Positions 1-62,451 of a stretch of 64,000 nucleotides of DNA are shown in pieces. The position numbers and the translations under genes are program-made. Each line of letters begins with the position of its first letter. The stretch's first letter is position 1. The DNA lies in NCBI RefSeq assembly GCF_009914755.1, contig NC_060933.1; one strand, 5' to 3'. A model generated the notes under the pieces. The model did no database searches. It was not told the origin of the DNA and was given only the letters and a program-made list of their open reading frames with translations. Source of the stretch: the human T2T-CHM13v2.0 reference genome, Homo sapiens.

Positions 1-497
1 ATGGAATGGAATGCAAAGGAAATTAATCAACCCGAGTGGAATGGCATGGAATGGAATGCAATGGATTGGAATGGAATGGAATCAACTCGAGTGGAAAGGA
101 ATGGAATGGAATGGAAATGAATGGAATGAACTCAACTCGAGTGGAATGGAATGGAATGGAATGGATTGGAATGGATTGCAATGGAATGAACTGGAATGGA
201 ATGGAATGGAATCAATCATGGAAGGGAATGTAATGGAGTGGAAAGAAGGGAATGGAATCAACCCGAGTGGAATGCAAGGCAATGGAATGGAATGGAAAGG
301 AATGGAATGCAATCAACTCGATTGCAATGGAATGGAATGGAATGGAATGGAATGGAGTTAACCGGAATAGAATGGAATGGAACGGAATGGAATGGAATGG
401 AAGGGAATGGAATCAACACGAGTGCAGGGGAATGGAATGGAATGGAATGCAATTGAATGGAATCATCCGGAATGGAATGGAATGGAATGGAATAAAC
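1..497 (+). repeat. HSat3 block, G-rich (GGAAT) strand on +
   Basis: GGAAT pentamers up to ...ggaatggaataaac at 497. Confidence 0.95.
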
Positions 498-509
498 CCA
501 TTCCGTTCC
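479..509. other. Inversion junction J1 (GGAAT->CATTC)
   Basis: ggaatggaatgg-aataaac-ccattccgttcc; exact reverse complement of the junction at 17088-17118. Confidence 0.92.
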
Positions 510-3500
510 ATTGTACTCGGGTTGATTCCATTCCATTGCATTCCATTCCATTCCATTCCATTCCATTCCATTCCATTCCATTCCATTCCGTTTCATTCCA
601 TTACATTCGGATTGATTCTATTCAACTCCCTTACTCTCCATTACATTCCATTCCATTCGGGTTGTTCCATTCCATTCCATTCCATTCCACTCCATTCCAT
701 TGCACTCGGGTTGATTCCATTCCATTCCATTCCATTCCATTCGATTCCATTCCATTCCAATTCTTTCCATTCCATTCTATTCCGTACCATGCCATTCCAT
801 TCCATACAATTCCATTCCATTCCATTCCACTCATTCCACTCCGTTCCGTTCCGTTCCGTTACGTTCCATTCCGTTCCGTTCCATTCCATTCCATTCCATT
901 CTATTCGGGTTAATTCCATTCCATTCCATTCGATTGCAATCGAGTTGATTCCATTCCATTCCATTCCATTCCATTCCATTCCATTCCATTCCTTTCCATT
1001 CCATTACGGATGATTCCATTCCATTGCATTCCATTCCATTCCATTCCCCTGTACTCGGGTTGATTCCATTCCATTCCATTCCAATCCATGGCATTCCACT
1101 CGTGTTGATTCCATTCTTTCCATTCCATTCAAGTTGAATCCATTCCATTGCATTCCATTCCATTCGATTCCATTCGATTGCACTCGGGTTGATTCCATTC
1201 CATTGCATTCCATTCCATTCGATTCCATTCCATTCCATTCCATTCCATTCCATTCCGTTCCATTCCATTCCATTACATTCGGATTGATTCTATTCAATTC
1301 CGTTACACTCCATTACATTCCATTCCATTCGGGTAGTTTCCATTCCATTCCATTCCATTCCTCTCCATTCCATTGCACTCGGGTTGATTCCATTCCATTC
1401 CATTCCATTCAATTCCATTCCGTTCCATTCCATTCCATTACATTCGGATTGATTCTATTCAACTCCCTTACTCTCCATTACATTCCATTCCATTCGGGTT
1501 GTTCCATTCCATTCCATTCCATTCCACTCCATTCCATTGCACTCGGGTTTATTCCATTCCATTCCATTCCATTCCATTCCATTCCGTTCCGTTCCATTCC
1601 ATTCCATTCCATTCTATTCGGGTTAATTCCATTCCATTCCATTCCATTCCATTCCAATCGAGTTGATTCCATTCCATTCCATTCCATTCCATTCCACTCC
1701 ATTCCAGTCCTTTCCATTCCATTCCACTCGGGTTGATTCCAATGTATTCCTTTCCATTCCATTCGGTTTGAAGGCATTCCATTCCATTCAATTCCATTCC
1801 ATTCCATTCCATTCCATTCCATTCCATTCCATTCCATTGTACTCGGGTTGATTCCATTCCATTCCATTCCATTCTATTCCATTCCGTTGCATTCCATTCC
1901 ATTACATTCGGACTGATTCTATTCAACTCTCTTACTCTCCATTCCATTCCATTCCATTCGGGTTGTTCCATTCCATTCCATTCCATTCCACTCCATTCCA
2001 TTGCACTCGTGTTGATTCCATTCCATTCCATTCCATACCATTCCATTCCATTCCATTCCATTCCATTCCGTTCCATTCCGTTCCATTCCATTCCATTCCA
2101 TTGCAATCGAGTTGATTCCATTCCATTCCATTCAATTCCGGATGATTCCATTCCATTGCCTTCAATTCCATTCCATTCCCCTGCACTCGGGTTGATTCCA
2201 TTCCATTCCATTCCATTCCATTCCATTCCATTCCATTCCATTTCATTCCATTCCATTTCGTTCCTTTCCATTCTATTCCGTACCATTCCATTCCATTCCA
2301 TTCCATTCCATTCCATTCCATTCCATTCCATGCCATTCCACTCGGGTTGATTCCATTCCTTTCCATTCCATTCGAGTTGAATCCATTCCAATCCATTCCA
2401 TTCCATTCGATTCAATTCCATTGCACACGGGTTCATTCCATTCCATTCCATTCCATTCCATTCCATTTCGTTCCATTCCATTCTACTCCGTACCATTCCA
2501 TTCCATTCCATTCCATTCCATTCCATTCCATTCCATTCCATTCCATTCCACTCCATGCCATTCCACTCGGGTTTATTCCATTCCTTTCCATTCCATTCGG
2601 GTTGAATCCATTCCATTCCATTCCATTCCATTCGATTCCATTACATTGCACTCGGGTTGATTCCATTCCATTCCATTCCATTCCATTCCATTCCATTTAG
2701 TTCCATTCCATTCTATTCCATACCATTCCATTCCATTCCATTCCATTCCACTCCATTCCATGCTATTCCTCTCGGGTTTATTCCATTCCTTTCCATTCCA
2801 TTCGGATTGAATCCATTCCTATCCATTCAATTCCATTCCACTCGATTCCATTACATTGCACTCGTGTTGTTTCCATTCCATTCCATTCCATTCCATTTCA
2901 TTCTATTCCATTCCATTCCATTCCATTCCATTCCATTCCATTCCATTCCATTCCATTCCATGCCATTCCACTCGGGTTGATTCCATTCCTTTCCATTCCA
3001 TTCGAGTTGAAACCATTCCATTCCATTCCATTCCATTCCATTCCATTCCAATCCATTGCACACGGGTTCATTCCATTCCATTCCATTCCATTCCATTCCA
3101 TTCCATTTCGTTCCATTCCATTCTATTCCGTAGCATTCCATTCCATTCCATTCCATTCGTTTCCATTCCATTCGGGTTGAATCCATTCCTTTCCATTCCA
3201 TTCCGTTCAATTCCATTCCATTGAACTCGGGTTGATTCCATTCCATTCCATGCCATTCCATTTCATTCCGTTCCATTCCATTCCATTACATTCGGATTGA
3301 TTCTTTTCAATTCCCTTACACTCCATTCCATTCCATTCCATTCGGGTAGTTTCCGTTCCATTCCATTCCATTCCACTCCATTGCATTGCACTCTGGTTGA
3401 TTGATTCCATTCCATTGCATTCCATTCCATTCCATTCCATTCCGGATGAATCCATTCCATTGCATTCCATTCCATTCCATTCCCCTGCACTCGGGTTGAT

Positions 3501-6500
3501 TCCATTCCATTCCATTCCGTTCCATTCCATTCCATTCCATTCCATTCTGTTCAGGTTAATTCCATTCCATTCCATTCCATTCCATTCCATTCCATTCCAT
3601 TCCATTCCATTCCATTCCATTGCAATCGAGTTGTTTCCATTGCATTCCATTCCATTCCATTCCATTGCATTCCATTGCATTCCATTCCCCTGCACTCAGT
3701 TTGATTCCATTCCATTCCATTCCATTCCATTCCATTCCATTCCATTCCGGATGATTCCATTCCATTGCCTTCCATTCCACTCCATTCCCCTGCACTCGGG
3801 TTGATTCCATTCCATTCCATTCCATTCCATTCCATTCCATTCCATTCCATTCCATTCCATTTCGTTCCATTCCACTCTATTCCATTCCATTCCATTCCAT
3901 TCCATTCCATTCCATTCCATTCCATTCCATTCTATTCGGGTTAATTTCATTCCATTCCATTCCATTCCATTCCATTCCATTCCATTCCATTCCATTCCAT
4001 TGAAATCGAGTTGATTCCATTTCATTCCATTCCATTCCATTCCATTCCATTCCATTCCGTTCCATTCCATTCCATTACATTCGGATTGATTGTATTCAAT
4101 TCCCTTAAACTCCATTACATTCCATTCCATTCGGGTTGTTTCCGTTCCATTACATTCCATTCCACTCCATTCCATTGCACTCAGGTTGATTCCATTCCAT
4201 TCCATTCCATTCCATTCCATTCCATTTCGTTCCATTCCATTCTATTCCGTACCATTCCATTCCATTCCATTCCATTCCATGCCATTCCACTCGGATTGAT
4301 TCCATTCCTTTCCATTCCATTCGGGTTGAATCCATTCCATTCTATTCCATTGCATTCCGTTCCATTCCATTCCCCTGCAATCGGGTGGATTCCATTTTAT
4401 TCAATTCCATTCCATTCATTCCATTCCATTCCATTCCATTTCGTTCCATTCCATTCTATTCCGTACCTTTCCATTCCGTTCCATTCCATTCCATTCCATG
4501 CCATGCCATTCCACTCGGGTTGATTCCATTCCTTTCCATTCCATTCTAGTTGAATCCATTCCATTGCATTCTATTCCATTCGATTCCATTCAATTGCACA
4601 CGGGTTCATTCTATTCCATTCCATTCCATTCCATTCCATTCCATTCCGTTCCATTCCATTCCATTTCGTTCCATTCCATTCTATTCCGTACCATTCCCTT
4701 CCATTCCATTCCATTCCCCTCCGTTCCATGCCATTCCACTCTGGTTTATTCCATTCCTTTCCATTCCATTCGGGTTGAATCCATTCCATTCCATTCCATT
4801 CCATTAAATTCCATTCCATTCCATTCCATGCCATTCCACTCGGGTTGATTCCATTCCTTTCCATTCCATTCGAGTTGAACCCATTCCATTCCATTCCATT
4901 CCATTCCATTGCTCACGGGTTCATTCCTTTCCATTCCATTCCATTCCATTCCATTTCGTTCCATTCCATTCTACTCCGTACCATTCCATTCCATTCCATT
5001 CCCTTCCATGCCATTTCACTCGGGATTATTCCTTTCCTTTCCATTCCATTCGGGTTGAATCCATTCCATTCCATTCCATTGCATTCCATTCCATTCCATT
5101 CCCCTGTAATCGGGTGGATTCCATTCTATTCCATTGCATTCCATTCCATTCCATTCCATTCCGTTCCATTTCGTTCCATTCCATTCTATTCCGTAACTTT
5201 CCATACCATTCCATTCCATTCCATTCCATGCCATTCCACTCGGGTTGATTCCATTGCTTTCCATTCCATTTGGGTTGAATCTAATCCATTCCATTCCATT
5301 CCATTCCATTCCATTCCATTGCACTAGGTTTGATTCCATTTCACTGCATTCCATTCCATTCCATTCCATTCCATTAAATTCCATTCCACTCGGGTTGATG
5401 CCATTCCTTTCCATTCCATTCGTGTTGAATCCATTCCATTCCATTCCATTACTTTCGATTCCATTCCATTGCACTCGGGTTGAACCCATTCCATTGGATT
5501 CCATTCCATTCCATTGCATTCCATTCCGTTCCATTCCATTCCATTACATTCGTATTGATTCTGTTCAATTCCCTTACACTCCATTCCATTCCATTCCATT
5601 CCATTCGGGTTGTTTCCATTCCATTCCATTCCATTCCACTCCATTCCATTGCAATCGGGTTGATTCCATTCCATTCCATTCCATTCCATTCCGTATGATT
5701 CCATTCCATTGCATTCCATTCCATTCCATTCCCCTGCACTCGGGTGGATTCCATTCTATTCCATTCCATTCCATTCCACTCTATTCCATTCCATTCCATT
5801 CCATTCCATTCCATTCCATTCCATTCCATTCCATTCTATTTCATTCTATTCGGGTTAATTTCATTCCATTCCATTCCATTCCATTCCATTCCGTTCCATT
5901 CCATTCCATTCCATTCCATTGAAATCGAGTTGATTCCATTTCATTCCATTCCATTCCATTCCATTCCATTCCATTCCATTGCATTTTATTCCGGTTAATT
6001 CCGTTCCATTCCATTCCATTCCATTCCCTTCCATTCCATTCCATTCCATTCTATTAGGGTTAATTCCATTCCATTCCATTCCATTACATTCCATTGCAAT
6101 CGAGTTGATTCCATTCCATTCCATTCCATTCCATTCTATTCCGGATGATTGCATTCCATTGCCTTCCATTCCATTCCATTCACCTACACTCGGGTTTATT
6201 CCATTCCATTCCTTTCCATTCCATTCCATTCCATTCCATTCCATTCCATTCTATTAGGGTTAATTCCATTCCATTCCATTCCATTACATTCCATTGCAAT
6301 CGAGTTGATTCCATTCCATTCGATTCCATTCCATTGCACACGGGTTCATTCCATTCCATTCCATTCCTTTCCATTCCATTCCATTGCACACGGGTTCATT
6401 CCATTCCATTCCATTCCATTACATTACATTCCATTTCGTTCCATTCCATTCTATTCCGTACCATTCCATTCCATTCCATTCCATTCCATTCCATTCCACT

Positions 6501-8891
6501 CCATTCCATGCCATTCCACTCGGGTTTATTCCATTCCTTTCCATTCCATTCGGGTTGAATCCATTCCATTCCATTCCATTCCATTCCATTCCATTCAATT
6601 CCATTACATAGCACTCGGGTTGATTCCATTGCATTCCATTCCATTCCATTGCATTCCATTCCATTCCATTCCATTCCATTGCATTCCATTCCATGCCGTT
6701 CCACTCGGGTTGATTCCATTCCTTTCCATTCCATTCGAGTTGAACCCATTCCATTCCATTCCATTCCATTCCATTCCATTCCATTCCATTCCATTCTATT
6801 CGGGTTAATTTCATTCCATTCCATTCCATTCCATTCCATTGCATTCCATTCCATTCCATTGAAATCGAGTTGATTCCATTTCATTCCATTCCATTCCATT
6901 CCATTCCATTCCATTCCATTGCATTCTATTCCGGTTAATTCCATTCCATTCCATTCCCTTCCATTCCATTCCATTCCATTCTATTAGGGTTAATTCCATT
7001 CCATTCCATTCCATTACATTCCATTGCAATCGAGTTGATTCCATTCCATTCGATTCCATTCCATTGCACACGGGTTCATTCCATTCCATTCCATTCCTTT
7101 CCATTCCATTCCATTGCACACGGGTTCATTCCATTCCATTCCATTCCATTACATTACATTACATTTCGTTCCATTCCATTCTATTCCGTACCATTCCATT
7201 CCATTCCATTCCATTCCATTCCATTCCATTCCACTCCATTCCATGCCATTCCACTCGGGTTTATTCCATTCCTTTCCATTCCATTCGGGTTGAATCCATT
7301 CCATTCCATTCCATTCCATTCCACTCCATTCAATTCCATTACATAGCACTCGGGTTGATTCCATTGCATTCCATTCCATTCCATTGCATTCCATTCCATT
7401 CCATTCCATTCCATTGCATTCCATTCCATGCCGTTCCACTCGGGTTGATTCCATTCCTTTCCATTCCATTCGAGTTGAACCCATTCCATTCCATTCCATT
7501 CCATTCCATTCCATTGCAATCGAATTGATTCCATTCCATTCTATTCCATTCCATTCCATTCCATTCCATTGCACTAGGTTTGATTCCATTCCACTGCATT
7601 CCATTCCATTCCATTCCATTCCATTCCATTCCGTTCCATTCCATTCCATTACATTCGGTTTGATTGTATTCAATTCCCTTACACTCCATTTCATTCCATT
7701 CCATTCAGGTTGTTTCCATTCCATTCCAATCCATTCCACTCCATTCCATTGCACTCGGGTTGATTGCATTCCATTCCATTCCATTCTACTCCATTTCGTT
7801 CCATTCCATTCTATTCGGTAGCATTCCATTCCATTCCATTCCAATCCATTCCATTCCATGCCATTCCACTTGGGTTGATTCCCTTCCTTTCCAATCCATT
7901 CGGGTTGAATCCATTCCATTCCATTCCATTCCATTCCATTCCATTCCTTTCAATTCCATTGCACACGGGTTGGTTCCATTCCATTCCTTTCCGTTCCATT
8001 CCGGATGACTCCATTCCATTGCATTCCATTCCATTCCATTCCCCTGCACTCGGGTTCATTACCTTCCATTCCATTTACTTCCATTCCATTCCATTCCATT
8101 CTATTCGGGTTAATTCCATTCCATTCCATTGCATTCCATTGCATTGCATTCCATTCCATTCCATTCCATGCCATTCCATTCCATTCCATTGCAATCGAGT
8201 TGATTCCATTCCATTCCATTCAATTCCGGATGATTCCATTCCATTGCCTTCAATTCCATTCCATTCCCCTGCACTCGGTTTGATTCCATTCCATTCCATT
8301 CCATTCCATTCCATTCCATTCCATTCCATTCCATTTCGTTCCATTCCATTCTATTCCGTACCATTCCATTCTATTCCATTCCATTCCATTCCACTCCACT
8401 CCATGCCATTCCACTCGGGTTTATTCCATTCCTTTCCATTCCATTCGTGTTGAATCCATTCCATTCCATTCCATTCCATTCGATTCCATTCAATTGCTCA
8501 CGTGTTCATTCCATTCCATTCCATTCCATTCCATTCCATTTCGTTCCATTCCATTCTCTTCCGTAGTATTCCATTCCATTCCATTCCACTCCATTCCATG
8601 CCATTCCACTCGGGTTTATTCCATTCCTTTCCATTCCATTCGGGTTGAATTCATTCCATTGCATTCCATTCCATTCCATTCAATTCCATTACATTGCACT
8701 CGGGTTGATTCCATTCCATTCCTTTCCATTTCAATCCATTCCCTTCCATTCCATTTCATTCCATTGCTTTCCATTCCATTCCATTCCATTCCATTCCATG
8801 CCATTCCACTCGGGTTGATTCCATTCCTTTCCATTCCATTCTAGTTGAACCCATTCCATTCCATTCCATTCCATTCCATTCCATTGCACAC
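498..8891 (-). repeat. HSat3 block, C-rich (CATTC) on + (GGAAT on -)
   Basis: CATTC pentamers from ccattccgttcc (498) to ccattgcacac (8891). Confidence 0.95.
5845..7515 (+). repeat. Local tandem duplication (~950-bp unit, then a ~720-bp copy lacking ~200 bp)
   Basis: gaaatcgag at 5921/6861; ctattagggttaat at 6051, 6251 and 6981; acatagcac at 6606/7341; ccatgccgtt at 6691/7426. The same structure recurs at ~59330-61040. Confidence 0.8.
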
Positions 8892-8910
8892 GGAATGGAA
8901 TGGAATGGAA
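8869..8910. other. Inversion junction J2 (CATTC->GGAAT)
   Basis: ttccattccattccatt-gcacacgg-aatggaatggaatggaa; identical to the junction at 62410-62451. Confidence 0.92.
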
Positions 8911-11900
8911 ACAACCCGAATGGAATGGAATGTATTGGAGTGTAAGGGAATTGAATACAATCAATCCGAATGTAATGGAATGGAATGGAACGGAATGGAA
9001 TGGAATGGAATGCAGCGGAATGGAATCAAACCTAGTGCAATGGAATGAAATGGAATGGAATGGAATGGAATGGAATGGAATGGAATGGAATGGATTGGAT
9101 TCAACCCAAATGGAATGGAAAGCAATGGAATCAACCCGAGTGGAATGGCATGGAATGGAATGGAATGGAATGGAATGGAATGGTACAGAATAGAATGGAA
9201 TGGAACGAAATGGAATGGAATGGAATGGAATGGAACGGAATGGAATGGAATCAACTCGATTGCAATGGAATGTAATGGAATGGAATGGAATGGAATTAAC
9301 GCGAATAGAATGGAATGGAATGTAATGGAACGGAATGGAATGGAATGGGATGGAATGGAATCAATCTGAGTGCAGGGGAATGCAATGGAATGGAATGCAA
9401 TGGAATGGAATGGAATGGAATGGAATGCAATGGAATCAACTAGATTGCAATGGGATGGAATGGAATGGAATGGAATGGAATGGAATGGAATGGAATGGAA
9501 TGGAATTAACCTGAAAAGAATGGAATGGAATGGAATGGAACGGAATGGAATGGAATGCAATGGAATGGGATCAACCCGAGTGCAGGGGAATGGAATGGAA
9601 TGGAATGCAATCTAATGGAATCAATCAACCCGAGTGCAATAGAATGCAGTGGAATGGAATGGAATGGAATGGAAAGTACCCGAATGGAATGGAATGTAAT
9701 GGAGTGTAAGGGAATTAAAAAGAATCAATCCGAATGTAATGGAATGGAATTGAAAGGAAAGGAATGGAAAGGAATGGAATGGAATAGAACGGAATGAAAT
9801 GGAATGGCATAGAATGGAATGGAATCAACCCGAGCGCAATGGAATGGAATGGAATGGAATGGAATGGATTCAACCCGAATGGAATGGAAAGGAATGGAAT
9901 AAACCCGAGTGAAATGGCATGGAAGGGAATGGAATGGAATGGAATGGTACGGAATAGAATGGAATGGAACGAAATGGAATGGAATGGAACGGAATGGAAT
10001 GGAATGGAATGGAATGAACCCGTGAGCAATGGAATGGAATGGAATGGAATGGAATGGAAGGGAATGGAATGGGTTCAATTCGAATGGAATGGAAAGGAAT
10101 GGAATCAACCCGAGTGCAATGGCATGGAATGGAATGGAATGGAATGGAATGGAATGGAATGGAATGGACTCAACCCGAATGGAATGGAAAGGAATGGAAT
10201 AAACCCGAGTGGAATGGCATGGAATGGAGTGGAATGGAATGGAATGGAATGGAATGGAATGGAATGGAATTAACCCTAATAGAATGGAATGGAATGGAAT
10301 GGAATGGAATGGAATGGAATGGAATGGAATGGAATGGAATTAACACGAATAGAATGGAATGGAATGGAATGGAATGGAATGGAATGGAATCAACTCGATT
10401 TCAATGGAATGGAATGGAATGGAATGGAATGGAATGGAATGGAAGGGAATGGAATGAAATTAACCCGAATAGAATGGAATGGAATGGAATGGAATGGAAT
10501 GGAATGGAATGGAATGGAATGGAATAGAATGGAATCCAACCGAGTGCAGTGGAATGGAATGGAATGGAATGCAATGGAATGGAATCATACGGAATGGAAT
10601 GGAATGGAATGGAATGGAATGAAATGGAATGGAATGCAATGGAATGGAATGGAATCAACCCGATTGCAATGGAATGGAGTGGAATGGAATGGAATGGAAT
10701 GGAAACAACCCGAATGGAATGGAATGTAATGGAGAGTAAGGGAATTGAATAGAATCAATACGAATGTAATGGAATGGAATGGAACGGAATGGAATGCAAT
10801 GGAATGGAATGGAATGCAATGGAATGGGATCAACCCGAGTGAAATGGAATGGAATCGAAAGGAATGGAATAGAATGGAATGGTTTCAACCCGAATGGAAT
10901 GGAAAGGAATGGAATCAACCCGAGTGGAATGGAATGGAATGGAATGGAATGGAATGGTATGGAATGGAATGGGTTCAACTCGAATGGAATGGAAAAGAAT
11001 GGAATCAACCCGAGTGGAATGGCATGGAATGGAATGGAATGGAATGGAATGGAATGGAATGGAATGGAATGGATTCAACACGAATGGAATGGAAGGGAAT
11101 GGAATAAACCCGAGTGGAATGGCATGGAATAGAGTGGAATGGAATTGAATGGAAGGGAATGGTACGGAATAGAATGGAATGGAACGAAATGGAATGGAAT
11201 GGAATGGAATGGAATGAACCCGTGTGCAATTGAATGGAATCGAATGGAATGGAATGCAATGGAATGGATTCAACTAGAATGGAATGGAAAGGAATGGAAT
11301 CAACCCGAGTGGAATGGCATGGAATGGAATGGAATGAAATGGAATGGAATGGAATGGAATGGAATGGAATGGTACGGAATAGAATGGAATGGAACGAAAT
11401 GGAATGGAATGGAATGGAATGGAACGGAATGGAATGGAATCAACTCGATTGCAATGGAATGTAATGGAATGGAATGGAATTAACGGGAATAGAATGGAAT
11501 GGAATGGAATGGAACGGAATGGAATGGAATGGGATGGAATGGAATCAATCTGAGTGCAGGGGAATGGAATGGAATGGAATGCAATGGAATGGAATGGAAT
11601 GGAATGGAATGCAATGGAATCAACTCGATTGCAATTGGATGGAATGGAATGGAATGGAATGGAATGGAATGGAAGGGAATGGAATGGAATGGAATTAACC
11701 TGAACAGAATGGAAAGGAATGGAATGGAATGGAACGGAATGGAATGGAATAGAATGGAATGGAATCAACCCGATTGCAATGGAATGGAGTGGAATGGAAT
11801 GGAATGGAATGGAAACAACCCGAATGGAATGGAATGTAATGGAGTGTAAGGGAATTGAATAGAATCAATACGAATGTAATGGAATGGAATGGAACGGAAT

Positions 11901-14900
11901 GGAATGCAATGGAATGGAATGCAATGCAATGGAATGGGATCAACCCGAGTGTAATGGAATGGAATCGAAAGGAATGGAATGGAATGGAATGGTTTCAACC
12001 CGAATGGAATGGAAAGGAATGGAATCATCCCGAGTGGAATGGAATGGAATGGAATGGAATGGAATGGAATGGAATGGAATGGAATGAACCCGTGTGCAAT
12101 GGAATGGAATCGAATGGAATGGAATGGAATGGAATGGATTCAAGTCGAATGGAATGGAAAGGAATGGAATCAACCCGAGTGGAATGGCATGGAATGGAAT
12201 GGAATGAAATGGAATGGAATGGAATGGTACGGAATAGAACGGAATGAAACGAAATGGAATGGAATGGAATGGAATGGAAAGGAATGGAATGGAATCAACC
12301 CGAGTGCAGGGGAATGGAATGGAATGGAAGGCAATGGAATGCAATCATCCGGAATTGAATGGAATGGAATGGAATGGAATGGAATCAACTCGATTGCAAT
12401 GGAATGAAATGGAATGGAATGGAATGGAATTAACCCTAATAGAATGGAATGGAATGGAATGGAAGGGAATGGAATGGAATGGAATGGAATGGAATGAAAT
12501 GGAATCAACTCGATTTCAATGGAATGGAATGGAATGCAATGGAATGGAATGGAATGGAATGGAATGAAATTAACCCGAATAGAATGGAATGGAATGGAAT
12601 GGAATGGAATGGAATGGAATGGAATGGAATAGAGTGGAATGGAATGGAATGGAATAGAATGGAATCCACCCGAGTGCAGGGGAATGGAATGGAATGGAAT
12701 GCAATGGAATGGAATCATACGGAATGGAATGGAATGGAATGGAATGGAATCAACCTGATTGCAATGGAATGGAGTGGAATGGAATGGAATGGAATGGAAA
12801 CAACCCGAATGGAATGGAATGGAATGGAGTGTAAGGGAAGTGAATAGAATCAATACGAATGTGATGGAATGGAATGGAACGGAATGGAATGCAATGGAAT
12901 GGAAAGGAATCCAATGGAATGGGTTCAACCCGAGTGCAATGGAATGGAATCGAAAGTAATGGAATGGAATGGAATGGAATGGATTCAACACGAATGGAAT
13001 GGAAAGGAATGGAATCAACCCGAGTGCAGGGGAATGTAATGGAACGGAATGCAATGGAAAGGAATCATCCGGAATGGAATGGAATGGAATGGAATGGAAT
13101 CAACCCGAGTGCAATGGAATGGAGTGGAATGGAATGGAATGGAATGGATCAACCCGAATGGAATGGAATGTAATGTAGAGTAAGGGAGTTGAAAAGAATC
13201 AATCCGAATGTAATGGAATGGAATGGAACGGAATGGAATGGAATGGAATGGAATGGAATGCAATGGAATGGAATCAACCCGAGTACAATGGAATGGAATG
13301 GAATGGAATGGAATGGAACGGAATGGAATGGAATGGAATGCAATGGAATGGAATCTTCCGGAATGGAAAGGAATGGAATGGAATGGAATGGAATGGAATG
13401 CAATGGATTCAACTCGATTCCAATGGAATGGAATAGAATGGAATGGAATGGAATGGAATGGAATTAAACCGAATAGAATGGAACGGAATGGAATGGAACG
13501 GAACGGAATGGAACTGAACGGAACGGAACGGAGTGGAATGGAATGGAATGGAATTGTATGGAATGGAATGGAATGGTACGGAATAGAATGGAATGGAATG
13601 AATTGGAATGGAATGGAATCGAATGGAATGGAATGGAATGGAATGGAATCAACCCGAGTGCAGGGGAATGTAATGGAACGGAATGCAATGGAATGGAATC
13701 ATCCGGAATGGAATGGAATGGAATGGAATGGAATGGAATCAACCCGAGTGCAATGGAATGGAGTGGAATGGAATGGAATGGAATGGAATAGAATCAACTC
13801 GATTGGAATGGAATGGAATGGAATGGAATTAACCCGAATACAATGCAATGGAATGGAATGGAACGGAATGGAGTGGAATGGAATGGAATGAACCCGAGTG
13901 CAGGGGAATGGAATGGAATGGAATGCAATGGAAAGGAATCATCCGGAATGGAATGGAATGGAATGGAATGCAAAGCAATGGAATCAACTCGATTGCAATG
14001 GAATGGAATGGAATGGAAAGGAATACATTGGAATCAACCCGAGTGGAAAGGAATGGAAAGGACTGAAATGGAGTGGAATGGAATGGAATGGAATGGAATG
14101 GAATGGAAAGGAATCAACTTGATTGGAATGAAATGGAATGGAATGGAATGGAATCAACGCGAGTGCAGGGGAATGGAATGGAATGGAATGCAATGGAATG
14201 GAATCTTCCGGAATGGAATGGAATTGAATGGAATGGAATGGAATGGAATGGAATAAACCTGAGGGCAATGGAATGGAGTGGAATGGAATGGAATGGAATG
14301 GAACAACCCGAATGGAATGGAATGTAATGGAGACTAAGGGAGTTGAATAGAATCAATCCGAATGTAATGGAATGGAATGGAACGGAATGGAATTGAATGG
14401 AATGGAATGGGATGCAATGGAATGGAATCAACCCGAGTGCAATCGAATGGAATCGAATAGAATGGAATGCAATGGAATGGATTCAACTTGAATGGAATGG
14501 AAAGAATGGAATCAACACGAGTGGAAGGGCATGGATTGGAATGCAATGGAATGGAATCAACCCGAGTACAGGGGAATGGAATGGAATGGAATGCAATGGA
14601 ATGGAATCATCCGTAATGGAATGGAAAGGAATGGAATGGAATGGAATGGAATGGAATGGAATGGAATGGAATGGAATCAACACGATTGCAATCGAATGGA
14701 ATGGAATGGAATTAACCCGAATAGAATGGAATGGAATGGAATGGAACGGAACGGAATGGAATGGAATGGAATGGAATGGAATGGAACGGAACGGAACGGA
14801 ACGGAACGGAATGGAATGGAATGGAATGGAATGGAATGGAATCGAATCAACGCGAGTGCAGGGGAATGGAATGGAATGGAATGCAATGGAATGGAATCTT

Positions 14901-17099
14901 CCGGAATGGAATGGAATGGAATGGAATGGAATGGAATGGAATTAACCCGAATAGAATGGAATGGAATGGAATGGAACGGAATGGAACGGAATGGAAAGGA
15001 ATGGAATGGAATGGTATGGAATGGAATGGAATGGTACGGAATAGAATGGAATGGAACGAATTGTAATGGAATGGAATTGAATGGAATGGAATGGAATGGA
15101 ATGGAATCAACGCGAGTGCAGGGGAATGTAATGGAACGGAATGCAATGGAATGGAATCATCCGGAATGGAATGGAATGGAATGGAATGGAATGGAATCAA
15201 CCCGAGTGCAATGGAATGGAGTGGAATGGAATGGAATGGAATTGAACAACCCGAATGGAATGGAATGTAATGGAGAGTAAGGGAGTTGAATAGAATCAAT
15301 CCGAAAGTAATGGAATGGAATGCAACGGAATGGAATGGAATGGAATGGAATGGAATGCAATGGAATTGAATCAACCCGAGTACAATGGAATGGAATGGAA
15401 TGGAATGGAAAGGAATGGAATGGAATGGAATGGAATCGTTCCGAGTGGAATAGGAGGGAATGTATTCGAGTGGAATGGAAAGGAAAGGTATCAACCAGAG
15501 TGGAATGGAAGGGAATGGAATGGAATGGAAACTAATAGAATGGAATCAACCCAAGTGGAATGGAATGGAAAGGATTGGAATGGAATGGAATGGAATGGAA
15601 TCAACTCGATTGTAATGGAATGGAATGGAATGGAATGCAATGGAACGGAATTAACCCGAATACAATGGAATGGAATGGAATGGAATGGAATGGAGTGGAA
15701 TGGAATGGAATCAACCCGAGTGCAGGAGAATGGAATGGAATGGAATGCAATGGAATGGAATCATCCGGAATGGAATGGAAAGGAATGGAATGCAAAGCAA
15801 TGGAATCAACTCGATTGCAATGGAATGAAATGGAATGGAAAGGAATACATTGGAATCAACCCGAGTGGAATGGAATGGAAAGGACTGGAATGGAGTGGAA
15901 TGGAATGGAATGGAATGGAATGGAATCAACTCGATTGGAATGGAATGGAATGGAATGGAATGGAATTAACCCGAATAGAATGGAATGGAATGGAATGGAA
16001 CGGAACGGAATGGAATGGAATGGAATGTAATGGAATGGAATGGAATAAACCCGAGTGCAATGGAATGGAGTGGAATGGAATGGAATGGAATGGAACAACC
16101 CGAATGGAATGGAATGTAATGGAGAGTAAGGGAGTTGAATAGAATCAATCCGAATGTAATGGAATGGAATGGAACGGAATGGAATTGAATGGAATGGAAT
16201 GGAATGGAATCAACCCGAGTGCAATGGAATGGAGAGGAATGGAATGGAATGGAATGGAAACTACCCGAATGGAATGGAATGTAATGGAGTGTAACGGAAT
16301 TGAATAGAATCAATCCGAATGTAATGGAATGGAATGGAACGGAATGGAATGGAATGGAATGGAATGGAATGGAATCGAATGGAATGGAATGCAATGGAAT
16401 GGAATCAACCCGAGTGCAATCGAATGGAATCGAATGGAATGGAATGCAATGGAATGGATTCAACTTGAATGGAATGGAAAGAATGGAATCAACACGAGTG
16501 GAATGCCATGGATTGGAATGGAATGGAATGGAATCAACCCGAGTACAGGGGAATGGAATGGAATGGAATGCAATGGAATGGAATCATCCGTAATGGAATG
16601 GAAAGGAATGGAATGGAATGGAATGGAATGGAATGGAATGGAATGGAATCAACTCGATTGCAATCGAATGGAATGGAATGGAATTAACCCGAATAGAATG
16701 GAATGGAATGGAATGGAACGGAACGGAATGGAACGTAACGGAACGGAACGGAACGGAGTGGAATGAGTGGAATGGAATGGAATGGAATTGTATGGAATGG
16801 AATGGCATGGTACGGAATAGAATGGAATGGAAAGAATTGGAATGGAATGGAATCGAATGGAATGGAATGGAATGGAATGGAATCAACCCGAGTGCAATGG
16901 AATGGAGTGGAATGGAATGGAATGGAATGGAACAACCCGAATGGAATGGAATGTAATGGAGAGTAAGGGAGTTAAATAGAATCAATCCGAATGTAATGGA
17001 ATGAAACGGAATGGAATGGAATGGAATGGAATGGAATGGAATGGAATGGAATGGAATGCAATGGAATGGAATCAACCCGAGTACAATGGAACGGAATGG
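8892..17099 (+). repeat. HSat3 inverted block (~8.2 kb), GGAAT on +
   Basis: GGAAT pentamers from ggaatggaa (8892) to ggaacggaatgg (17099). Confidence 0.95.
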
Positions 17100-17596
17100 G
17101 TTTATTCCATTCCATTCCATTCCATTCCGGATGATTCCATTCCATTGCATTCCATTCCATTCCATTCCCCTGCACTCGTGTTGATTCCATTCCCTTCCAT
17201 TCCATTCCATTCAGTTCCATTCCATTCTATTCCGGTTAACTCCATTCCATTTCATTCCATTCCATTCCATTGCAATCGAGTTGATTGCATTCCATTCCTT
17301 TCCATTCCATTCCATTGCCTTGCATTCCACTCGGGTTGATTCCATTCCCTTCTTTCCACTCCATTACATTCCCTTCCATGATTGATTCCATTCCATTCCA
17401 TTCCAGTTCATTCCATTGCAATCCATTCCAATCCATTCCATTCCATTCCATTCCACTCGAGTTGAGTTCATTCCATTCATTTCCATTCCATTCCATTCCT
17501 TTCCACTCGAGTTGATTCCATTCCATTCCAATCCATTGCATTCCATTCCATGCCATTCCACTCGGGTTGATTAATTTCCTTTGCATTCCATTCCAT
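15829..17596 (-). repeat. Right arm of near-identical inverted repeat (partner 1-1763)
   Basis: Reverse complement of 1-1763, including rare motifs (gaaattaatcaa, gaaagaaggg, aacgtaacg, ggaatgccatgg, aggaatacattgg). Confidence 0.92.
17088..17118. other. Inversion junction J1' (GGAAT->CATTC), reverse-complement copy of J1
   Basis: ggaacggaatgg-gtttatt-ccattccattcc; coordinates mirror J1 (position sum 17597). Confidence 0.92.
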
Positions 17597-20500
17597 TCCA
17601 TTCCATTCCATTCCATTCCATTCCATTCTGTTGCATTCCATTCCATTACATTCGGATTGATTCTATTCAACTCCCTTACTCTCCATTACATTCCATTCCA
17701 TTCGGATTGTTCCATTCCATTCCATTCCATTCCAGTCCATTCCATTGCACTCGGGTTGATTCCATTCCATTCCATTCCATTCCATTCCATTCCATTCCGG
17801 ATGATTCCATTCCATTGCATTCCGTTCCATTACATTCCCCTGCACTCGCGTTGATTCCATTCCATTCCATTCCTTTCCATTCAATTCCATTCCATTACAA
17901 TTCGTTCCATTCCATTGTATTCCGTACCATTCCATTCCATTCCATACCATTCCATTCCATTCCATTCCATTCCATTCCATTCCATTCCGTTCCATTCCGT
18001 TGCATTCCATTCAATTCCATTCTATTCGGGTTAATCCCATTCCATTCCATTCCATTCCATTCTATTCCATTCCATTGCAACGGAGTTGAATCCATTGCAT
18101 TTCATTCCATTCCATTCCATTCCATTCCGGAAGATTCCATTCCATTGCATTCCATTCCATGCCATTCCCCTGCACTCGCGTTGATTCCATTCCATTCCAT
18201 TCCATTCCATTCCATTCCATTCAATTCCGTTCCGTTCCGTTCCATTCCATTCCATTCCATTCCATTCCATTCCGTTCCGTTCCATTCCATTCCATTCCAT
18301 TCTATTCGGGTTAATTCCACTCCATTCCATTCGATTGCAATCGTGTTGATTCCATTCCATTCCATTCCATTCCATTCCATTCCATTCCATTCCATTCCTT
18401 TCCATTCCATTACGGATGATTCCATTCCATTGCATTCCATTCCATTCCATTCCCCTGTAATCGGGTTGATTCCATTCCTTTGCATTCCAATCCATGCCCT
18501 TCCACTCGTGTTGATTCCATTCTTTCCATTCCATTCAAGTTGAATCTATTCCATTGCATTCCATTCCATTCGATTCCATTCGATTGCACTCGGGTTGATT
18601 CCATTCCATTGCATTCCATTCCATTCCATTCCATTCCATTCCATTCCATTCCGTTCCATTCCATTCCATTACATTCGGATTGATTCTATTCAATTCCCTT
18701 ACACTCCATTACATTCCATTCCATTCGGGTAGTTTCCATTCCATTCCATTCCATTCCTCTTCATTCCATTGCACTCGGGTTGATTCCATTCCATTGCATT
18801 CCATTCCATTCCATTCCGTTCCATTCCATTCCATTACATTCGGATTGACTCTATTCAACTCCCTTACTCTCCATTACATTCCATTGCATTCGGCTTGTTC
18901 CATTCCATTCCATTCCATTCCACTCCATTCCATTGCACTCAGGTTTATTCCGTTTCATTCCATTCCATTCCATTCCATTCCGGAAGATTCCATTCCATTG
19001 CATTCCATTCCATTCCATTCCCCTGCACTCGCGTTGATTCCATTCCATTCCATTCCATTCCATTCCATTCCATTCCATTCCGATCCGTTCCGTTCCATTC
19101 CATTCCATTCCATTCTATTCGGGTTAATTCCATTCCATTCCATTCGATTGCAATCGAGTTGATTTCATTCCATTCCATTCCATTCCATTCCATTCCTTTT
19201 CATTCAATTACGGATGATTCCATTCCATTGCATTCCATTCCATTCCATTCCCCTGTACTCGGGTTGATTCCATTCCATTCCATTCCATACCATTCCATTC
19301 CAATCCATTCCATTCCATTCCATTCCATTCCGTTCCATTCCATTCCATTCCATTCCATTCCATTCTATTCGGGTTAATCCCATTCCATTCCATTCCATTC
19401 CATTCTATTCCATTCCATTGCAATCGAGTTGCATCCATTGCATTTCATTTCATTCCATTCCATTCCATTCCATTCCGGAAGATTCCATTCCATTGCATTC
19501 CATTCCATTCCATTCCCCTGCAGTCAGGTTGATTCCATTCCATTCCATTCCATTCCATTCCATTCCATTCCATTCCGTTCCGTTCCGTTCCGTTCCATTC
19601 CATTCCATTCCATTCTATTCGGATTAATTCCATTCCATTCCATTCCATTCCATTCCATTCCATTCCATTCCAATCGAGTTGATTCCATTCCATTCCATTC
19701 CATTCCATTCCATTCCTTTCCATTACATTACGGATGACTCCATTCCATTTCATTCCATTCCATTCCATTACCCTGTACTCGGGTTGATTACATTCCATTC
19801 CATTCCAATCCATGCCATTCCAGTCGTGTTGATTCCATTCTTTCCATTCCATTCAAGTTGAATCCATTCCATTGCATTCCATTCCATTCGATTCCATTTG
19901 ATTGCACTCGGGTTGATTCCATGGCATTGCATTCCATTCCATTCCATTCCATTCCATTCCATTCCTTTCCATTCCATTCCATTCGGATTCATTCTATTCA
20001 ATTCCCTTACACTCCATTACATTCCATTCGATTCGTGTAGTTTCCATTCCATTCCATTCCATTCCTCTCCATTCCATTGCACTCGGGTTGATTCCATTCC
20101 ATTCCATTCCATTCCATTCCATTTCATTCCATTCCATTCCATTCCATTCCATCCCGGATGATTCCATTCCATTGAATTCCATTCCATTCCATTCCCCTGC
20201 ACTTGGGTTGATTCCATTCCATTCCATTCCATTCCTTTCTGTTCCATTCCATTCCATTCCATTCCATTCTATTCGTGTTAATTCCATTCCATTCTATTCC
20301 ATTCCATTCCATTGAAATCGAGTTGATTCCATTCCATTCCATTCCATTCCATTCCATTCCGGATGATTCCATTCCATTGCATTCCATTCCATTGCATTCC
20401 CCTGCACTCGGGTTGATTCCATTCCATTCCATTCCATTACATTCCATTCCATTCCGTTCCATTTCATTCTATTCGGGTTAATTCCATTCCATTCCATTCC

Positions 20501-23500
20501 ACTCCATTCCAGTCCTTTCCATTCCATTCCACTCGGGTTGATTCCATTCTATTCCTTTCAATTCCATTCCATTCCATTGCAATCGAGTTGATTCCATTCG
20601 AGTTGAATCCATTCCATTCCATTCCATTCCATTCCATTCCATTGCACACGGGTTCATTCCATTCCATTCCATTCCATTCCATTCCATTCCATTCCATTCC
20701 ATTTCATTCCATTCCATTATATTCCATACCATTCCATTCCATCCCATTCCATTCCGTTCCATTCCATGCCATTACACTCGGGTTGATTCCATTCCTTTCC
20801 ATTCCATTCTTGTTGAATCCATTCCATTCCATTCCATTCCATTCGAATCCATTCCATTGCACTCGGGGTGATTCCATTCCATTCCATTCCATTCCATTTC
20901 ATTCTATTCCATTCCATTACATTCGGATTGATTCTATTCAATTCCCTTACACTCCATTCCATTCCATTCCATTCGGGATGTTTCCATTGCATTCCATTCC
21001 ATTCCACTCCATTCCATTGCATCAGGTTGATTGCATTCCATTCCATTCCATTCCATTCCGGATGATTCCATTCCATTGCATTCCATTCCATTCCATTCCC
21101 CTGCACTCGGGTTGATTCCATTCCATTCCATTCCATTCCATTCCATTCCATTCCATTCCGTTCCAATCCATTCCATTCCATTCTATTCCGGTTAATTCCA
21201 TTCCATTCCATTCGATTCCATTCCATTCCATTCCATTCCCCTGCACTCGCGTTGATTCCATTCTATTCCATTCTATTCCATTCCATTCCCTTCCTTTCCT
21301 TTCCATTCCATTCCATTCCATTCCATTCCATTCCGTTCCGTTCCATTCCATTCCATTCCATTCTATTCGGGTTAATTCCATTCAATTCCATTCGATTGCA
21401 ACCAATTTTTTCCATTCCATTCCATTCCATTCCATTCCATTCCTTTCCATTCCATTACGGATGATTCCATTCCATTGCATTACATTCCAATCCATTCCCC
21501 TGTACTCGGGTTGATTCCATTCCATTCCATTCCAATCCATGCCCTTCAACTCTTGTTGATTCCATTCTTTCCATTCCATTCTAGTTGAATCCATTCCATT
21601 GCATTCCATTGCATTCCATTCCATTCGATTGCACTCGGGTTGATTCCATTCCATTGCATTCCATTCCATTCCATTCCATTCCATTCCATTCCATTCCATT
21701 CCGTTCCATTCCATTCCATTACATTCGGATTGATTCTATTCAACTCCCTTACTCTCCATTATATTCGATTCCATTCGGGTTGTTCCATTCCATTCCATTC
21801 CATTCCACTCCATTCCATTGCAGTCGGGTTGATTCCATTCCATTCCATTCCATTCCGGAAGATTCCATTACATTGCATTCCATTACATTCCATTCCCCTG
21901 CACTCGCGTTGATTCCATTCCTTTCCATTCCATTCCATTCCATTCCATTCCATTCCGTTTCGATCCATTCCATTCCATTCCATTCTATTCGGGTTAATTC
22001 CATTCCATTCCATTCGATTGCAATCGTGTTGATTCCATTCCATTCCATTCCATTCCATTCCATTCCTTTCCATTCCATTACGGATGATTCCATTCCATTG
22101 CATTCCATTCCATTCCATTCCCCTGTACTCGGGTTGATTCCATTCCATTGCATTCCAATCCATGCCCTTCCACTCGTGTTGATTCCATTCACTCCATTCC
22201 ATTCAAGTTGAATCCATTCCATTGCATTCCATTCCATTTGATTCCATTCGATTGCACTCGGGTTGATTCCATTCCATTGCATTCCATTCCATTCCATTCC
22301 ATTCCATTCCATTCCATTCCATTCCGTTCCATTCCATTCCTTTACATTCGGATTGATTCTATTCAATTCCCTTACACTCCATTACATTCCATTCCATTCG
22401 GGTAGGTTCCATTCCATTCCATTCAATTCCTCTCCATTCCATTGCACTCGGGTTGATTCCATTCCATTGCATTCCATTCCATTACATTCAATTACATTCC
22501 GTTCCATTCCATTCCATTACATTCGGATTGATTCTATTCAACTCCCTTACTCTCCATTACATTCCATTCCATTCGGGTTGTTCCATTCCATTCCATTCCA
22601 TTCCACTCCATTTCATTGCACTCGGGTTTATTCCATTCCATTCCATTCCATTCCATTCCATTCCATTCCATTCCATTCCGGAAGATTCCATTCCATTGCA
22701 TTCCATTCCATTCCATTCCCCTGCACTCGCGTTGATTCCATTCCATTCCATTCCATTCCATTCCATTCCATTCCATTCCTTTCCGTTCCATTCCATTCCA
22801 TTCCATTCCATTCCATTCCGTTCCGTTCCGTTCCGTTCCGTTCCATTCCATTCCACTCCATTCTATTCGGGTTAATTCCATTCCATTCCATTCGATTGCA
22901 ATCGAGTTGATTCCATTCCATTCCATTCCATTCCATTCTATTCCATTCCATTCCATTCCTTTCCATTCCATTACGGATGATTCGATTCCATTGCATTCCA
23001 TTCCATTCCATTCCCCTGTACTCGGGTTGATTCCATTCCATTCCATTCCATTCCATTCTATTCCATTCCATTCCGTTCCATTCCGGAAGTTTCCATTCCA
23101 TTGCATTCCATTCCATTCCATTCCCCTGCACTCGCGTTGATTCCATTCCATTCCATTCCATTCCATTCCATTCCATTCCATTCCGATCCGTTCCATTCCA
23201 TTCCATTCCTTTCCATTCCGTTCCGTTCCATTCCATTCCATTCCATTCCATTCTATTCGGGTTAATTCCATTCCATTCCACTCGATTGCAATCGAGTTGA
23301 TTCCATTCCATTCCATTCCATTTCATTGCATTCCATTCCTTTCCATTCCATTCCTTTCCATTCCATTACGGATGATTCTATTCCATTGCATTCCATTCCA
23401 TTCCATTCCCCTGTACTCGGGTTCATTCCATTCCATTCCATTCCAATCCATGCCATTCCACTCGTGTTGATTCCATTCTTTCCATTCCATTCAAGTTGAA

Positions 23501-29120: not shown

Positions 29121-29810
29121 TATTCCGTACCATTCCATTCCATTCCATACCATTCCATTCCATTCCATTCCATTCCGTTCCGTTCCGTTCCGTTCCATTC
29201 CATTCCATTCTATTTTATTCGGGTTAATTCCATTCCATTCCATTCTATTCCATTCCATTGCAATCGAGTTGAATCCATTGCATTCCATTCCATTCCATTC
29301 CGGAAGATTCCATTCCATTGCATTCCATTCCATTCCATTCCCCTGCACTCGCGTTGATTCCATTCCATTCCATTCCATTCCATTCCATTCCGTTCCGTTC
29401 CGTTCCATTCGATTCCATTCCATTCCGTTCCGTTCCGTTCCGTTCCATTCCATTCCATTCTATTCCGTACCATTCCATTCCATTCCATACCATTCCATTC
29501 CATTCCATTCCATTCCGTTCCGTTCCGTTCCGTTCCATTCCATTCCATTCTATTTTATTCGGGTTAATTCCATTCCATTCCATTCCATTCCATTCTATTC
29601 CATTCCATTGCAATCGAGTTGAATCCATTGCATTCCATTCCATTCCATTCCGGAAGATTCCATTCCATTGCATTCCATTCCATTCCATTCCCCTGCACTC
29701 GCGTTGATTCCATTCCATTCCATTCCATTCCATTCCATTCCGTTCCGTTCCGTTCCATTCGATTCCATTCCATTCCGTTCCGTTCCGTTCCGTTCCATTC
29801 CATTCCATTC
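29121..29810 (+). repeat. Tandem duplication, 2 x ~345 bp
   Basis: tattccgtac at 29121/29461; rare tattttattcggg at 29211/29551; ORF starts at 29269/29619 and 29318/29668. Confidence 0.85.
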
Positions 29811-62409: not shown

Positions 62410-62451
62410 TTCCATTCCATTCCATTGCACACGGAATGGAATGGAATGGAA
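62410..62451. other. Inversion junction J2' (CATTC->GGAAT), direct copy of J2
   Basis: tccattgcac-acgg-aatggaatggaatggaaacaacccg; offset 53541 from J2. Confidence 0.92.

What the first reader, a model, noticed from the sequence alone, without database searches (positions are those of the whole stretch)
1746..1763. Cryptic same-strand breakpoint: the inverted repeat ends and the direct repeat begins at one 18-bp microhomology, implying a ~39-kb inversion
Seen: sequence to the left of and including ATTCCTTTCCATTCCATT (1746-1763) equals the reverse complement of 15829-17596. Sequence from the same 18-mer rightwards equals 55267 onward. The local chimera ccaatgtattcctttcc...ttcggtttgaaggc occurs only here; elsewhere ccaatgtattcc is followed by ...tgcaatcgag (~23750, 28690, 31810, 34780, 37310, 53070). 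Inference: write the macro-unit as B(1746-8891) C(8892-17099) D(17100-55266). The window then begins inv(D)-inv(end of C)-B, which is what an inversion in the previous unit would give through recombination between oppositely oriented copies of this 18-mer (equivalents of 15829-15846 and 55267-55284). A breakpoint of this kind causes no strand switch, so strand-based inversion counts would miss it. It also moves an old junction (J1) rather than creating a new one.
Basis: partly seen in the sequence, partly recalled or inferred. Interest (0 to 1): 0.75.

Follow-up and report, generated by a model that had tools for sequence, protein, structure and literature searches.

The report
Satellite inverted-duplication junction, not 39-kb inversion
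A real 18-base join in the giant chromosome 9 satellite array sits at the inner end of a flipped duplicate of nearby satellite DNA, likely made by a one-way template switch rather than by the proposed 39-kb inversion, and joins of this sort are ordinary in this array.

Summary
The junction is real at 1746-1763: the inverted match ends and the direct match begins on the same 18 bases, and the junction is derived. Upstream identity to revcomp(17597+) stops about 620 bases before the window, and no reciprocal junction exists in 264 kb or, by exact probes, genome-wide. Upstream DNA is instead an inverted copy of sequence downstream of the window (76-128 kb, about 0.35% divergence), and marker spacing suggests arms of about 180 kb. 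Best reading: the non-reciprocal inner junction of a large inverted duplication in the chr9 HSat3 array, likely made by a microhomology template switch. The chimera has three copies, two in the known 9qh+ 10.6-Mb duplicate. Seven other same-strand switches lie nearby with 24-66 bases of overlap; 18 bases arises by chance in 2.5% of random joins. Side result: the window's two strand-switch junctions have 83 and 20 copies on chr9, so many counted 'inversion breakpoints' are copies, not events.

The parts
1746..1763 (+). Derived same-strand junction; 18 bases shared by both parents
   Evidence: End of inverted match and start of direct match; both parents continue into older paralogues across the 18-mer, the chimera does not; 3 copies genome-wide
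1..1763 (-). Inner end of the left (inverted) arm: inverted copy of C end, J1 and D start; the block reaches -620 upstream
   Evidence: Block -620..1763 = revcomp(15829-18222); block -631..742 = revcomp(76294-77667); 743-1763 has 0 substitutions against C1 in 1021 bases
484..514 (-). Inverted copy of the old strand-switch junction J1
   Evidence: Probe hit at C9:60202484, minus strand; strand switch near 496
1746..13836 (+). B1 plus first 4.9 kb of C1: 12.1-kb direct copy of 55267-67367
   Evidence: Block map; 0.245% substitutions
8877..8902 (+). Old strand-switch junction J0 (B/C); 83 copies on chr9
13804..13836 (+). A further same-strand jump (33-base overlap) that skips about 3.45 kb of C2 and ends the direct repeat
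   Evidence: Block ends 13836; exact run 13804-14108 = 70785-71089
15829..15846 (-). Left parent's 18-mer (reverse orientation) in C1, 14 kb from the junction
17083..17113 (+). Old strand-switch junction J1 (C/D); 20 copies on chr9
19288..55266 (+). D1 interior: the segment predicted to be inverted upstream; it has no recent copy upstream
55267..55284 (+). Right parent's 18-mer at the ancestral D1-end/B2 boundary
   Evidence: Continuous with the paralogue at 108661 on both sides, 2.1% and 1.3% divergence
62418..62443 (+). Second J0 copy (B2/C2)

Best explanation
The 18-base joint is a derived junction at the inner end of an inverted duplicate of downstream HSat3 sequence, has no reciprocal partner in this assembly, and was likely made by a one-way microhomology-guided template switch between oppositely oriented 18-mers. 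Shown: upstream DNA (-100 kb to 742) holds inverted copies of 76.3-128.4 kb; the last kilobase (743-1763) copies C1; B then resumes in direct orientation. Inferred from marker positions only: the arms run about 180 kb, from near C9:60,023,573 on the left to near 60,433,990 on the right. Inferred mechanism: a stalled or broken fork at the start of B re-primed on a reverse-oriented 18-mer in C (the nearest is 14 kb away) and copied C end, J1 and D outwards, losing what lay upstream of B. Later deletions and tandem duplications changed both arms, and the whole locus was copied again in the 10.6-Mb 9qh+ duplication.
For: Inverted blocks such as -20101..-9832 = 101911-112200 and -6932..-582 = 83424-89789. 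38 of 100 upstream 1-kb tiles are under 2% divergent from 76-164 kb, pooled 0.354%. Mirror markers J1+/J0+ at 60,023,573/60,059,787 (36,214 apart) and J0-/J1- at 60,397,844/60,433,960 (36,116 apart). No reciprocal product. Both parents are ancestral continuities, and a paralogue at 72.69-72.76 Mb shows the ancestral marker order C end, J1, D end, B, J0, C, J1. Clean join without inserted bases. Three copies, two inside a 9.5-kb tandem repeat that the window lacks.
Against: 62 of 100 upstream tiles have no close partner in the 76-164 kb fetched; many lie in left-arm tandem duplications. The outer junction was not seen, and arms beyond -100 kb rest on two marker pairs. The 18 bases are weak evidence of a homology-guided step (2.5% by chance, 19.5% among joins sharing at least 4 bases). 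The final structure cannot tell a template switch from a deletion in a longer palindrome. The arm shared with the right side ends at 742, 1 kb short of the junction, so one more event is needed (a later deletion in C2, or a switch between J1 copies), and the substitutions do not decide which. Genome-wide probes were exact, so a mutated reciprocal site could be missed.
Confidence: 0.6

Rival explanations
1. Deletion in a longer palindrome: the inverted duplication formed earlier with another centre, and the junction is a later same-strand deletion (single-strand annealing, microhomology end-joining or unequal exchange) between two directly oriented 18-mers, from inverted C to the start of B.
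For: Both sides are on the CATTC strand. Seven other same-strand switches with 24-66 bases of overlap lie in 264 kb, several clearly deletions or tandem duplications. At 92606 and 101911 a tandem duplication within an arm gives the same 'inverted match ends, direct match begins' pattern. Secondary rearrangement of palindromes is proposed in PMC10766186 (abstract).
Against: Needs a lost intermediate of which nothing is seen; at 18 bases it is the shortest overlap of the eight switches.
Confidence: 0.24
2. An inversion did make the junction (the reader's 39 kb, or a larger flip of about 180 kb bounded by the inverted J1 repeats), and later events erased or replaced the inverted D1 and the reciprocal junction.
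For: 743-1763 has 0 substitutions against C1 while -575..740 is closer to the J1 copy at 76.5 kb (3 vs 6 substitutions), a possible mosaic (P of zero 0.01-0.09). Each arm is bounded by oppositely oriented J1 copies.
Against: No trace of the reciprocal product: no C-distal probe hit between 57.91 and 60.217 Mb on the plus strand, only 3 copies of the 14246 probe, none upstream of the window, the only reverse D-end copy is the intact paralogue at 72.71 Mb, and no J0 lies within 1 Mb upstream of the left arm's outer J1.
Confidence: 0.11
3. One reading: a present-day 39-kb reciprocal inversion with revcomp(17597-55266) upstream and a reciprocal junction about 37.7 kb away.
For: The geometry inside the window fits.
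Against: Both predictions fail on the fetched flank.
Confidence: 0.01
4. Misassembly: the chimera is a false join.
For: The 9q12 array needed two traversals of one graph loop, with nodes shared by both (10.1101/2021.05.26.445798, passages), so the copies at 70.85 Mb are not fully independent; they show 0 substitutions against the window copy in whole-locus alignments. No reads were examined.
Against: The three copies differ by small indels, two sit in a tandem repeat absent here, the flanks differ from both parents by their own substitutions, and graph edges are exact overlaps of at least 8 kb.
Confidence: 0.04

Closest known systems
chr9 HSat3B5 array with its many strand switches (Altemose et al., bioRxiv 10.1101/2021.07.12.452052; about 129 switches per haplotype in 10.64898/2026.09.03.749043; count scales with array length in 10.64898/2026.07.22.740206)
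   Same: Same array and same mosaic of orientations; J0 and J1 are such switches (passages read).
   Different: Those counts use strand switches; this junction changes orientation relative to its parents without one. The passages read do not describe single junctions or say that switches are copies of one another.
9qh+ multi-megabase tandem HSat3 duplication of CHM13 (Nurk et al., 10.1101/2021.05.26.445798)
   Same: Markers recur 10.58-10.66 Mb downstream, the chimera included; this matches the duplication described.
   Different: The junction is older than that duplication and was only carried along by it.
Inverted copy gains by template switching: MMBIR/FoSTeS, DUP-TRP/INV-DUP (PMC11293582), ODIRA (PMC10766186)
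   Same: Non-reciprocal gain of an inverted segment, short homology at one junction, inverted repeats nearby, later rearrangement of the palindrome (abstracts read).
   Different: No parent haplotype, no second junction and no copy-number profile were available; it lies in satellite DNA where short homology is everywhere, so the pathway is not identified.
Reciprocal inversion by recombination between inverted repeats
   Same: Oppositely oriented copies of the 18-mer exist at the two parents.
   Different: No reciprocal junction, not copy-neutral, and 18 bases is far below the kilobase-scale identity reported at homology-driven switches (2.2-5.5 kb in PMC11293582, abstract).

Membership tests
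Reciprocal inversion | Two reciprocal junctions | tested here: not met
   No match within 4 mismatches in 264 kb; 0 of 8 D-end sites overlap any of 37 C-distal sites; no orphan flanks upstream; genome-wide probes exact only
Reciprocal inversion | Inverted segment equals the intervening unit (D1) | tested here: not met
   Identity ends at about -620; 20 of 20 tiles 6-13% divergent at the predicted diagonal
Reciprocal inversion | Copy-neutral | tested here: not met
   The inverted sequence is also present in direct orientation at 76-128 kb; a flip inside an earlier direct duplicate is not excluded by this alone
Reciprocal inversion | Oppositely oriented repeats at the breakpoints | tested here: met
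   18-mer at 15829 (reverse) and 55267 (forward), but it is one of 126 copies in the window
Template-switch inverted duplication (MMBIR/FoSTeS, DUP-TRP/INV-DUP, ODIRA) | Gain of an inverted copy | tested here: met
   Inverted blocks of 2-10 kb from -100 kb to 742, pooled 0.354% divergence
Template-switch inverted duplication (MMBIR/FoSTeS, DUP-TRP/INV-DUP, ODIRA) | Microhomology at the junction beyond chance | tested here: inconclusive
   18 bases; 2.5% of random joins, 19.5% of joins sharing at least 4 bases
Template-switch inverted duplication (MMBIR/FoSTeS, DUP-TRP/INV-DUP, ODIRA) | A second junction at the outer end of the inverted copy | not tested
   It would lie near C9:60,017,800-60,023,573, outside the sequence obtained; inferred from missing mirror markers
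Template-switch inverted duplication (MMBIR/FoSTeS, DUP-TRP/INV-DUP, ODIRA) | Templated insertions or clustered mutations at the junction (feature recalled, not from a call) | tested here: not met
   Clean join; 0 substitutions in 1021 bases to the left, 497 exact bases to the right; this feature is not obligatory
Template-switch inverted duplication (MMBIR/FoSTeS, DUP-TRP/INV-DUP, ODIRA) | Known parent haplotype and DUP-TRP-DUP copy profile | not testable with these tools
   No other human or ape assembly is held
HSat3B5 | CATTC-derived satellite on chr9 carrying the subfamily's listed 24-mer | tested here: met
   The 24-mer in Table 1 of PMC4022460 is read by eye at window 636-659; the first 100 listed of 1,917 hits of a B-side probe are all on chr9, 49.3-51.3 Mb

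The most novel reading that the evidence does not exclude
The hundreds of 'inversion breakpoints' counted in the chr9 HSat3 array are mostly duplicated copies of a few old junctions (two of them account for 103 sites in CHM13), while recent orientation-changing events leave same-strand joints like this one that strand counts miss. Junction copy order and orientation could then be used to reconstruct the array's history and to genotype it across haplotypes.
Probability: 0.55. Interest if true: 0.45.

Novelty: new member of a known kind. Interest (0 to 1): 0.25.

Why it matters
As a single event it matters little: one more rearrangement junction in a satellite array known for its mosaic orientation, with no gene affected beyond a predicted lncRNA model. 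The lesson for method is real. Strand-switch counts overstate inversion events, because old switches are copied, and miss orientation-changing joints that keep the strand. Inversion calls inside this array are currently left out of population studies (10.64898/2026.07.22.740206, passage), so junction probes such as this chimera, J0 and J1 offer a simple alignment-free way to type the array.

Tried and rejected
Self-BLAST of the window timed out; exact-match chaining was used instead. A DNA similarity search of the genome found nothing because it skips simple repeats, so it shows nothing. Rejected: 39-kb inversion; tandem B-C-D macro-unit with equal D segments; chimera unique in the genome; 18-mer as a special recombination signal (126 copies in the window; chance rates). 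The last listing (C1 end against all 264 kb) printed no rows under its frequency filter and was not used; the middle's output was cut and only the visible rows were used. A test for fold-back symmetry at J0 and J1 found none close to either junction (2-10% divergence at offsets that do not mirror). The block map kept only blocks of 900 bases or more with 70% exact cover, so the eight switches plus the 13804 jump are a lower bound; two rows types with negative overlap (-25, -33 near 120.2 kb) were not counted as overlaps. The mosaic origin of the left arm could not be decided. Earlier findings were not open.

Full report
Setting. The window lies in the 27.6-Mb HSat3 array of chr9 (hub annotation; size from 10.1101/2021.07.12.452052, passages). 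It has strand switches near 496, 8890, 17100 and 62430. I call the B/C switch J0 and the C/D switch J1. I obtained 100 kb on each side; negative coordinates and those over 64000 refer to that 264-kb stretch.

Observation. An exact inverted match 1565-1763 = revcomp(15829-16027) ends where an exact direct match 1746-2242 = 55267-55763 begins, an 18-base overlap. The join has no inserted bases. The junction is the derived state: D-end/B2 continues into an older paralogue at 108661 on both sides (2.1% and 1.3%), whereas the chimera's left side does not (14.7%); C continues across the 18-mer in seven paralogues tested (distal side 3.3-9.2%), and the chimera's right side fits worse in six of the seven. 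In 30 array loci elsewhere, none of 34 copies of the right-hand motif has the chimera's left flank. The 18-mer has 126 copies in the window, and overlaps of 18 or more arise in 2.5% of 400,000 random joins and 19.5% of 50,605 joins sharing at least 4 bases.

Test of the 39-kb inversion. The 100 kb upstream are all on the GGAAT strand, but close identity to revcomp(17597+) ends at about -620. All 20 two-kb tiles from -40 kb to 0 are 6-13% divergent at the predicted diagonal. The predicted reciprocal junction has no match within 4 mismatches in 264 kb, the best being 7 of 64. Genome-wide, exact probes give 8 D-end sites and 37 C-distal sites, and none overlap; the closest pair is 23 kb apart. 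A second D-end probe marks the same 8 sites. The only reverse one, at 72.71 Mb, is followed by J0 7.1 kb later, as in the intact parent. A probe at 14246 has 3 copies, none upstream of the window; in the 72.7-Mb paralogue it lies 8.8 kb from J1 against 2.8 kb here, so it is a less direct test of the C-distal flank.

What is upstream. It is an inverted copy of sequence downstream of the window: -631..742 = 76294-77667, then after a 5.8-kb jump -6932..-582 = 83424-89789, on through -20101..-9832 = 101911-112200 to about -29 kb = 122 kb, and -99985..-98054 = 126472-128388. Of 100 upstream 1-kb tiles, 38 are under 2% divergent from 76-164 kb (pooled 0.354%); the other 62 have no close partner there, many being left-arm tandem duplications such as a 29.5-kb repeat. 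Marker positions extend the mirror: J0 and J1 at 60,059,787 and 60,023,573 face reverse J0 and J1 at 60,397,844 and 60,433,960, with spacings of 36,214 and 36,116. Markers beyond have no mirror, so the arm likely ends within about 6 kb of the outer J1. This length of about 180 kb is inferred from positions only. D1 and D2 share just 2.3 kb, so B-C-D is not a local tandem unit, although the order J1, D, B, J0, C, J1 recurs with varied lengths along the array, for example at 72.69-72.76 Mb.

Copies. The chimera occurs at 60,203,739, 70,846,742 and 70,856,275. Markers from 54.1 to 60.7 Mb recur about 10.6 Mb downstream, which fits the recent multi-megabase 9qh+ tandem duplication of CHM13 (10.1101/2021.05.26.445798, passages). 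The copies show 0 substitutions and 1-2 gaps in 2.8 kb in whole-locus alignments (one half-alignment gave 3 mismatches), and the two distant ones lie in a 9.5-kb tandem repeat absent here. This argues against a false join but is not independent proof, since both traversals share graph nodes and no reads were seen.

Mechanism. Shown: derived junction, inverted gain, no reciprocal product found. Inferred: a one-way template switch at the start of B onto a reverse 18-mer in C, copying outwards (0.6); or a later same-strand deletion in a longer palindrome (0.24); or an inversion whose partner junction was overwritten (0.11). The last kilobase (743-1763) has 0 substitutions against C1, while -575..740 is closer to the J1 copy at 76.5 kb (3 vs 6 substitutions). 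Either C2 lost that kilobase later, or the arm is a mosaic made by exchange between the J1 repeats; the counts do not decide. Divergences of 0.25-0.35% would mean roughly 3-4 million years at a genome-average rate (rate recalled, not from a call), less if satellites mutate faster.

How ordinary. The block map finds eight same-strand switches between recent duplicates in 264 kb, with overlaps of 28, 31, 50, 18, 33, 24, 66 and 25 bases. This one is the shortest. Two others (92606, 101911) show the same 'inverted match ends, direct match begins' pattern through tandem duplication within an arm, so the pattern does not diagnose an inversion.

Side result. J0 has 83 copies (47 forward, 36 reverse) and J1 has 20 (10 and 10) at up to one mismatch, all on chr9 between 52.3 and 76.4 Mb. 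Long-range strand change was confirmed only for the five copies inside the 264 kb. Altemose et al. report over 200 inversion breakpoints for the chr9 HSat3B5 and beta-satellite arrays, another study about 129 switches per haplotype on chr9 (10.64898/2026.09.03.749043, passages), and a third finds the count scales with array length (r = 0.90) and calls the switches by-products of expansion (10.64898/2026.07.22.740206, passages). Of 38 adjacent J0/J1 pairs, 12 have opposite orientation; each needs a hidden same-strand joint or further unprobed switches. Ten of the 12 belong to this locus and its 9qh+ copy.

Literature seen. Passages: 10.1101/2021.07.12.452052, 10.1101/2021.05.26.445798 (24), PMC4022460, 10.64898/2026.07.22.740206 (37), PMC11526998 (42, references only), 10.64898/2026.07.13.738322 (43), 10.64898/2026.09.03.749043 (48). 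Abstract and outline: PMC10766186, PMC11293582. Searches listed no paper whose title or abstract start describes this junction or copied switch junctions.

Verdict. Observation confirmed; 39-kb inversion not supported; an ordinary junction of a large inverted duplication in a known rearranged array, with a useful point of method. Interest 0.25.

Noticed in passing
window 8877-8902 and 17083-17113; chr9 52.3-76.4 Mb: The strand-switch junctions J0 and J1 recur 83 and 20 times on chr9, so at least 103 switch sites are copies of two junctions; the imbalance implies other unprobed junction types.
   Followed up: partly
G000:C9:70845487-70863453 (L052, L053): In the 9qh+ duplicate a 9.5-kb tandem repeat doubles inverted J1, the chimera, B and J0; the window's copy lacks it, so it marks a difference between the two 10.6-Mb copies.
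   Followed up: partly
G000:C9:72689469-72757844: A reverse-oriented paralogue with marker order C end, J1, D end (42 kb on), B, J0, 17.6-kb C, J1; a candidate for the ancestral arrangement, from positions only.
   Followed up: partly
window 13804-14108 and 76294 (L012): C1 (8.2 kb) and C2 (14.1 kb) appear to be differently shortened forms of a longer C: C1 skips about 3.45 kb at 13804-13836, and C2 rejoins C1 only about 240 bases before J1.
   Followed up: partly
upstream -88.6 kb to -19 kb (L002-L009): Nested recent tandem duplications in the left arm: periods of 8.2 kb and 29.5 kb, with 28-31 base overlaps at their joints.
   Followed up: partly
downstream 87.9-156 kb (L013-L020): Recent tandem duplications of 4.7, 5.6, 1.7, 2.0 and 9.5 kb in the right arm.
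   Followed up: partly
window 5500-6500 vs 12000-13000: B and the start of C share an older inverted homology (about 3% divergence) lying roughly but not exactly symmetric about J0.
   Followed up: partly
window 11972-11991 and 15413-15461: The predicted lncRNA LOC124906798 has exons of 20 and 49 bases inside the satellite and an intron across the junction; likely a spliced-alignment artefact of satellite transcripts, not examined.
   Followed up: no
G000:C9:54666617, 54687636, 65249335, 65270349, 71495248: Five D-end copies are not followed by J0 at 7.1 kb; four form 21-kb pairs repeated by the 10.6-Mb duplication. What follows them was not read.
   Followed up: no
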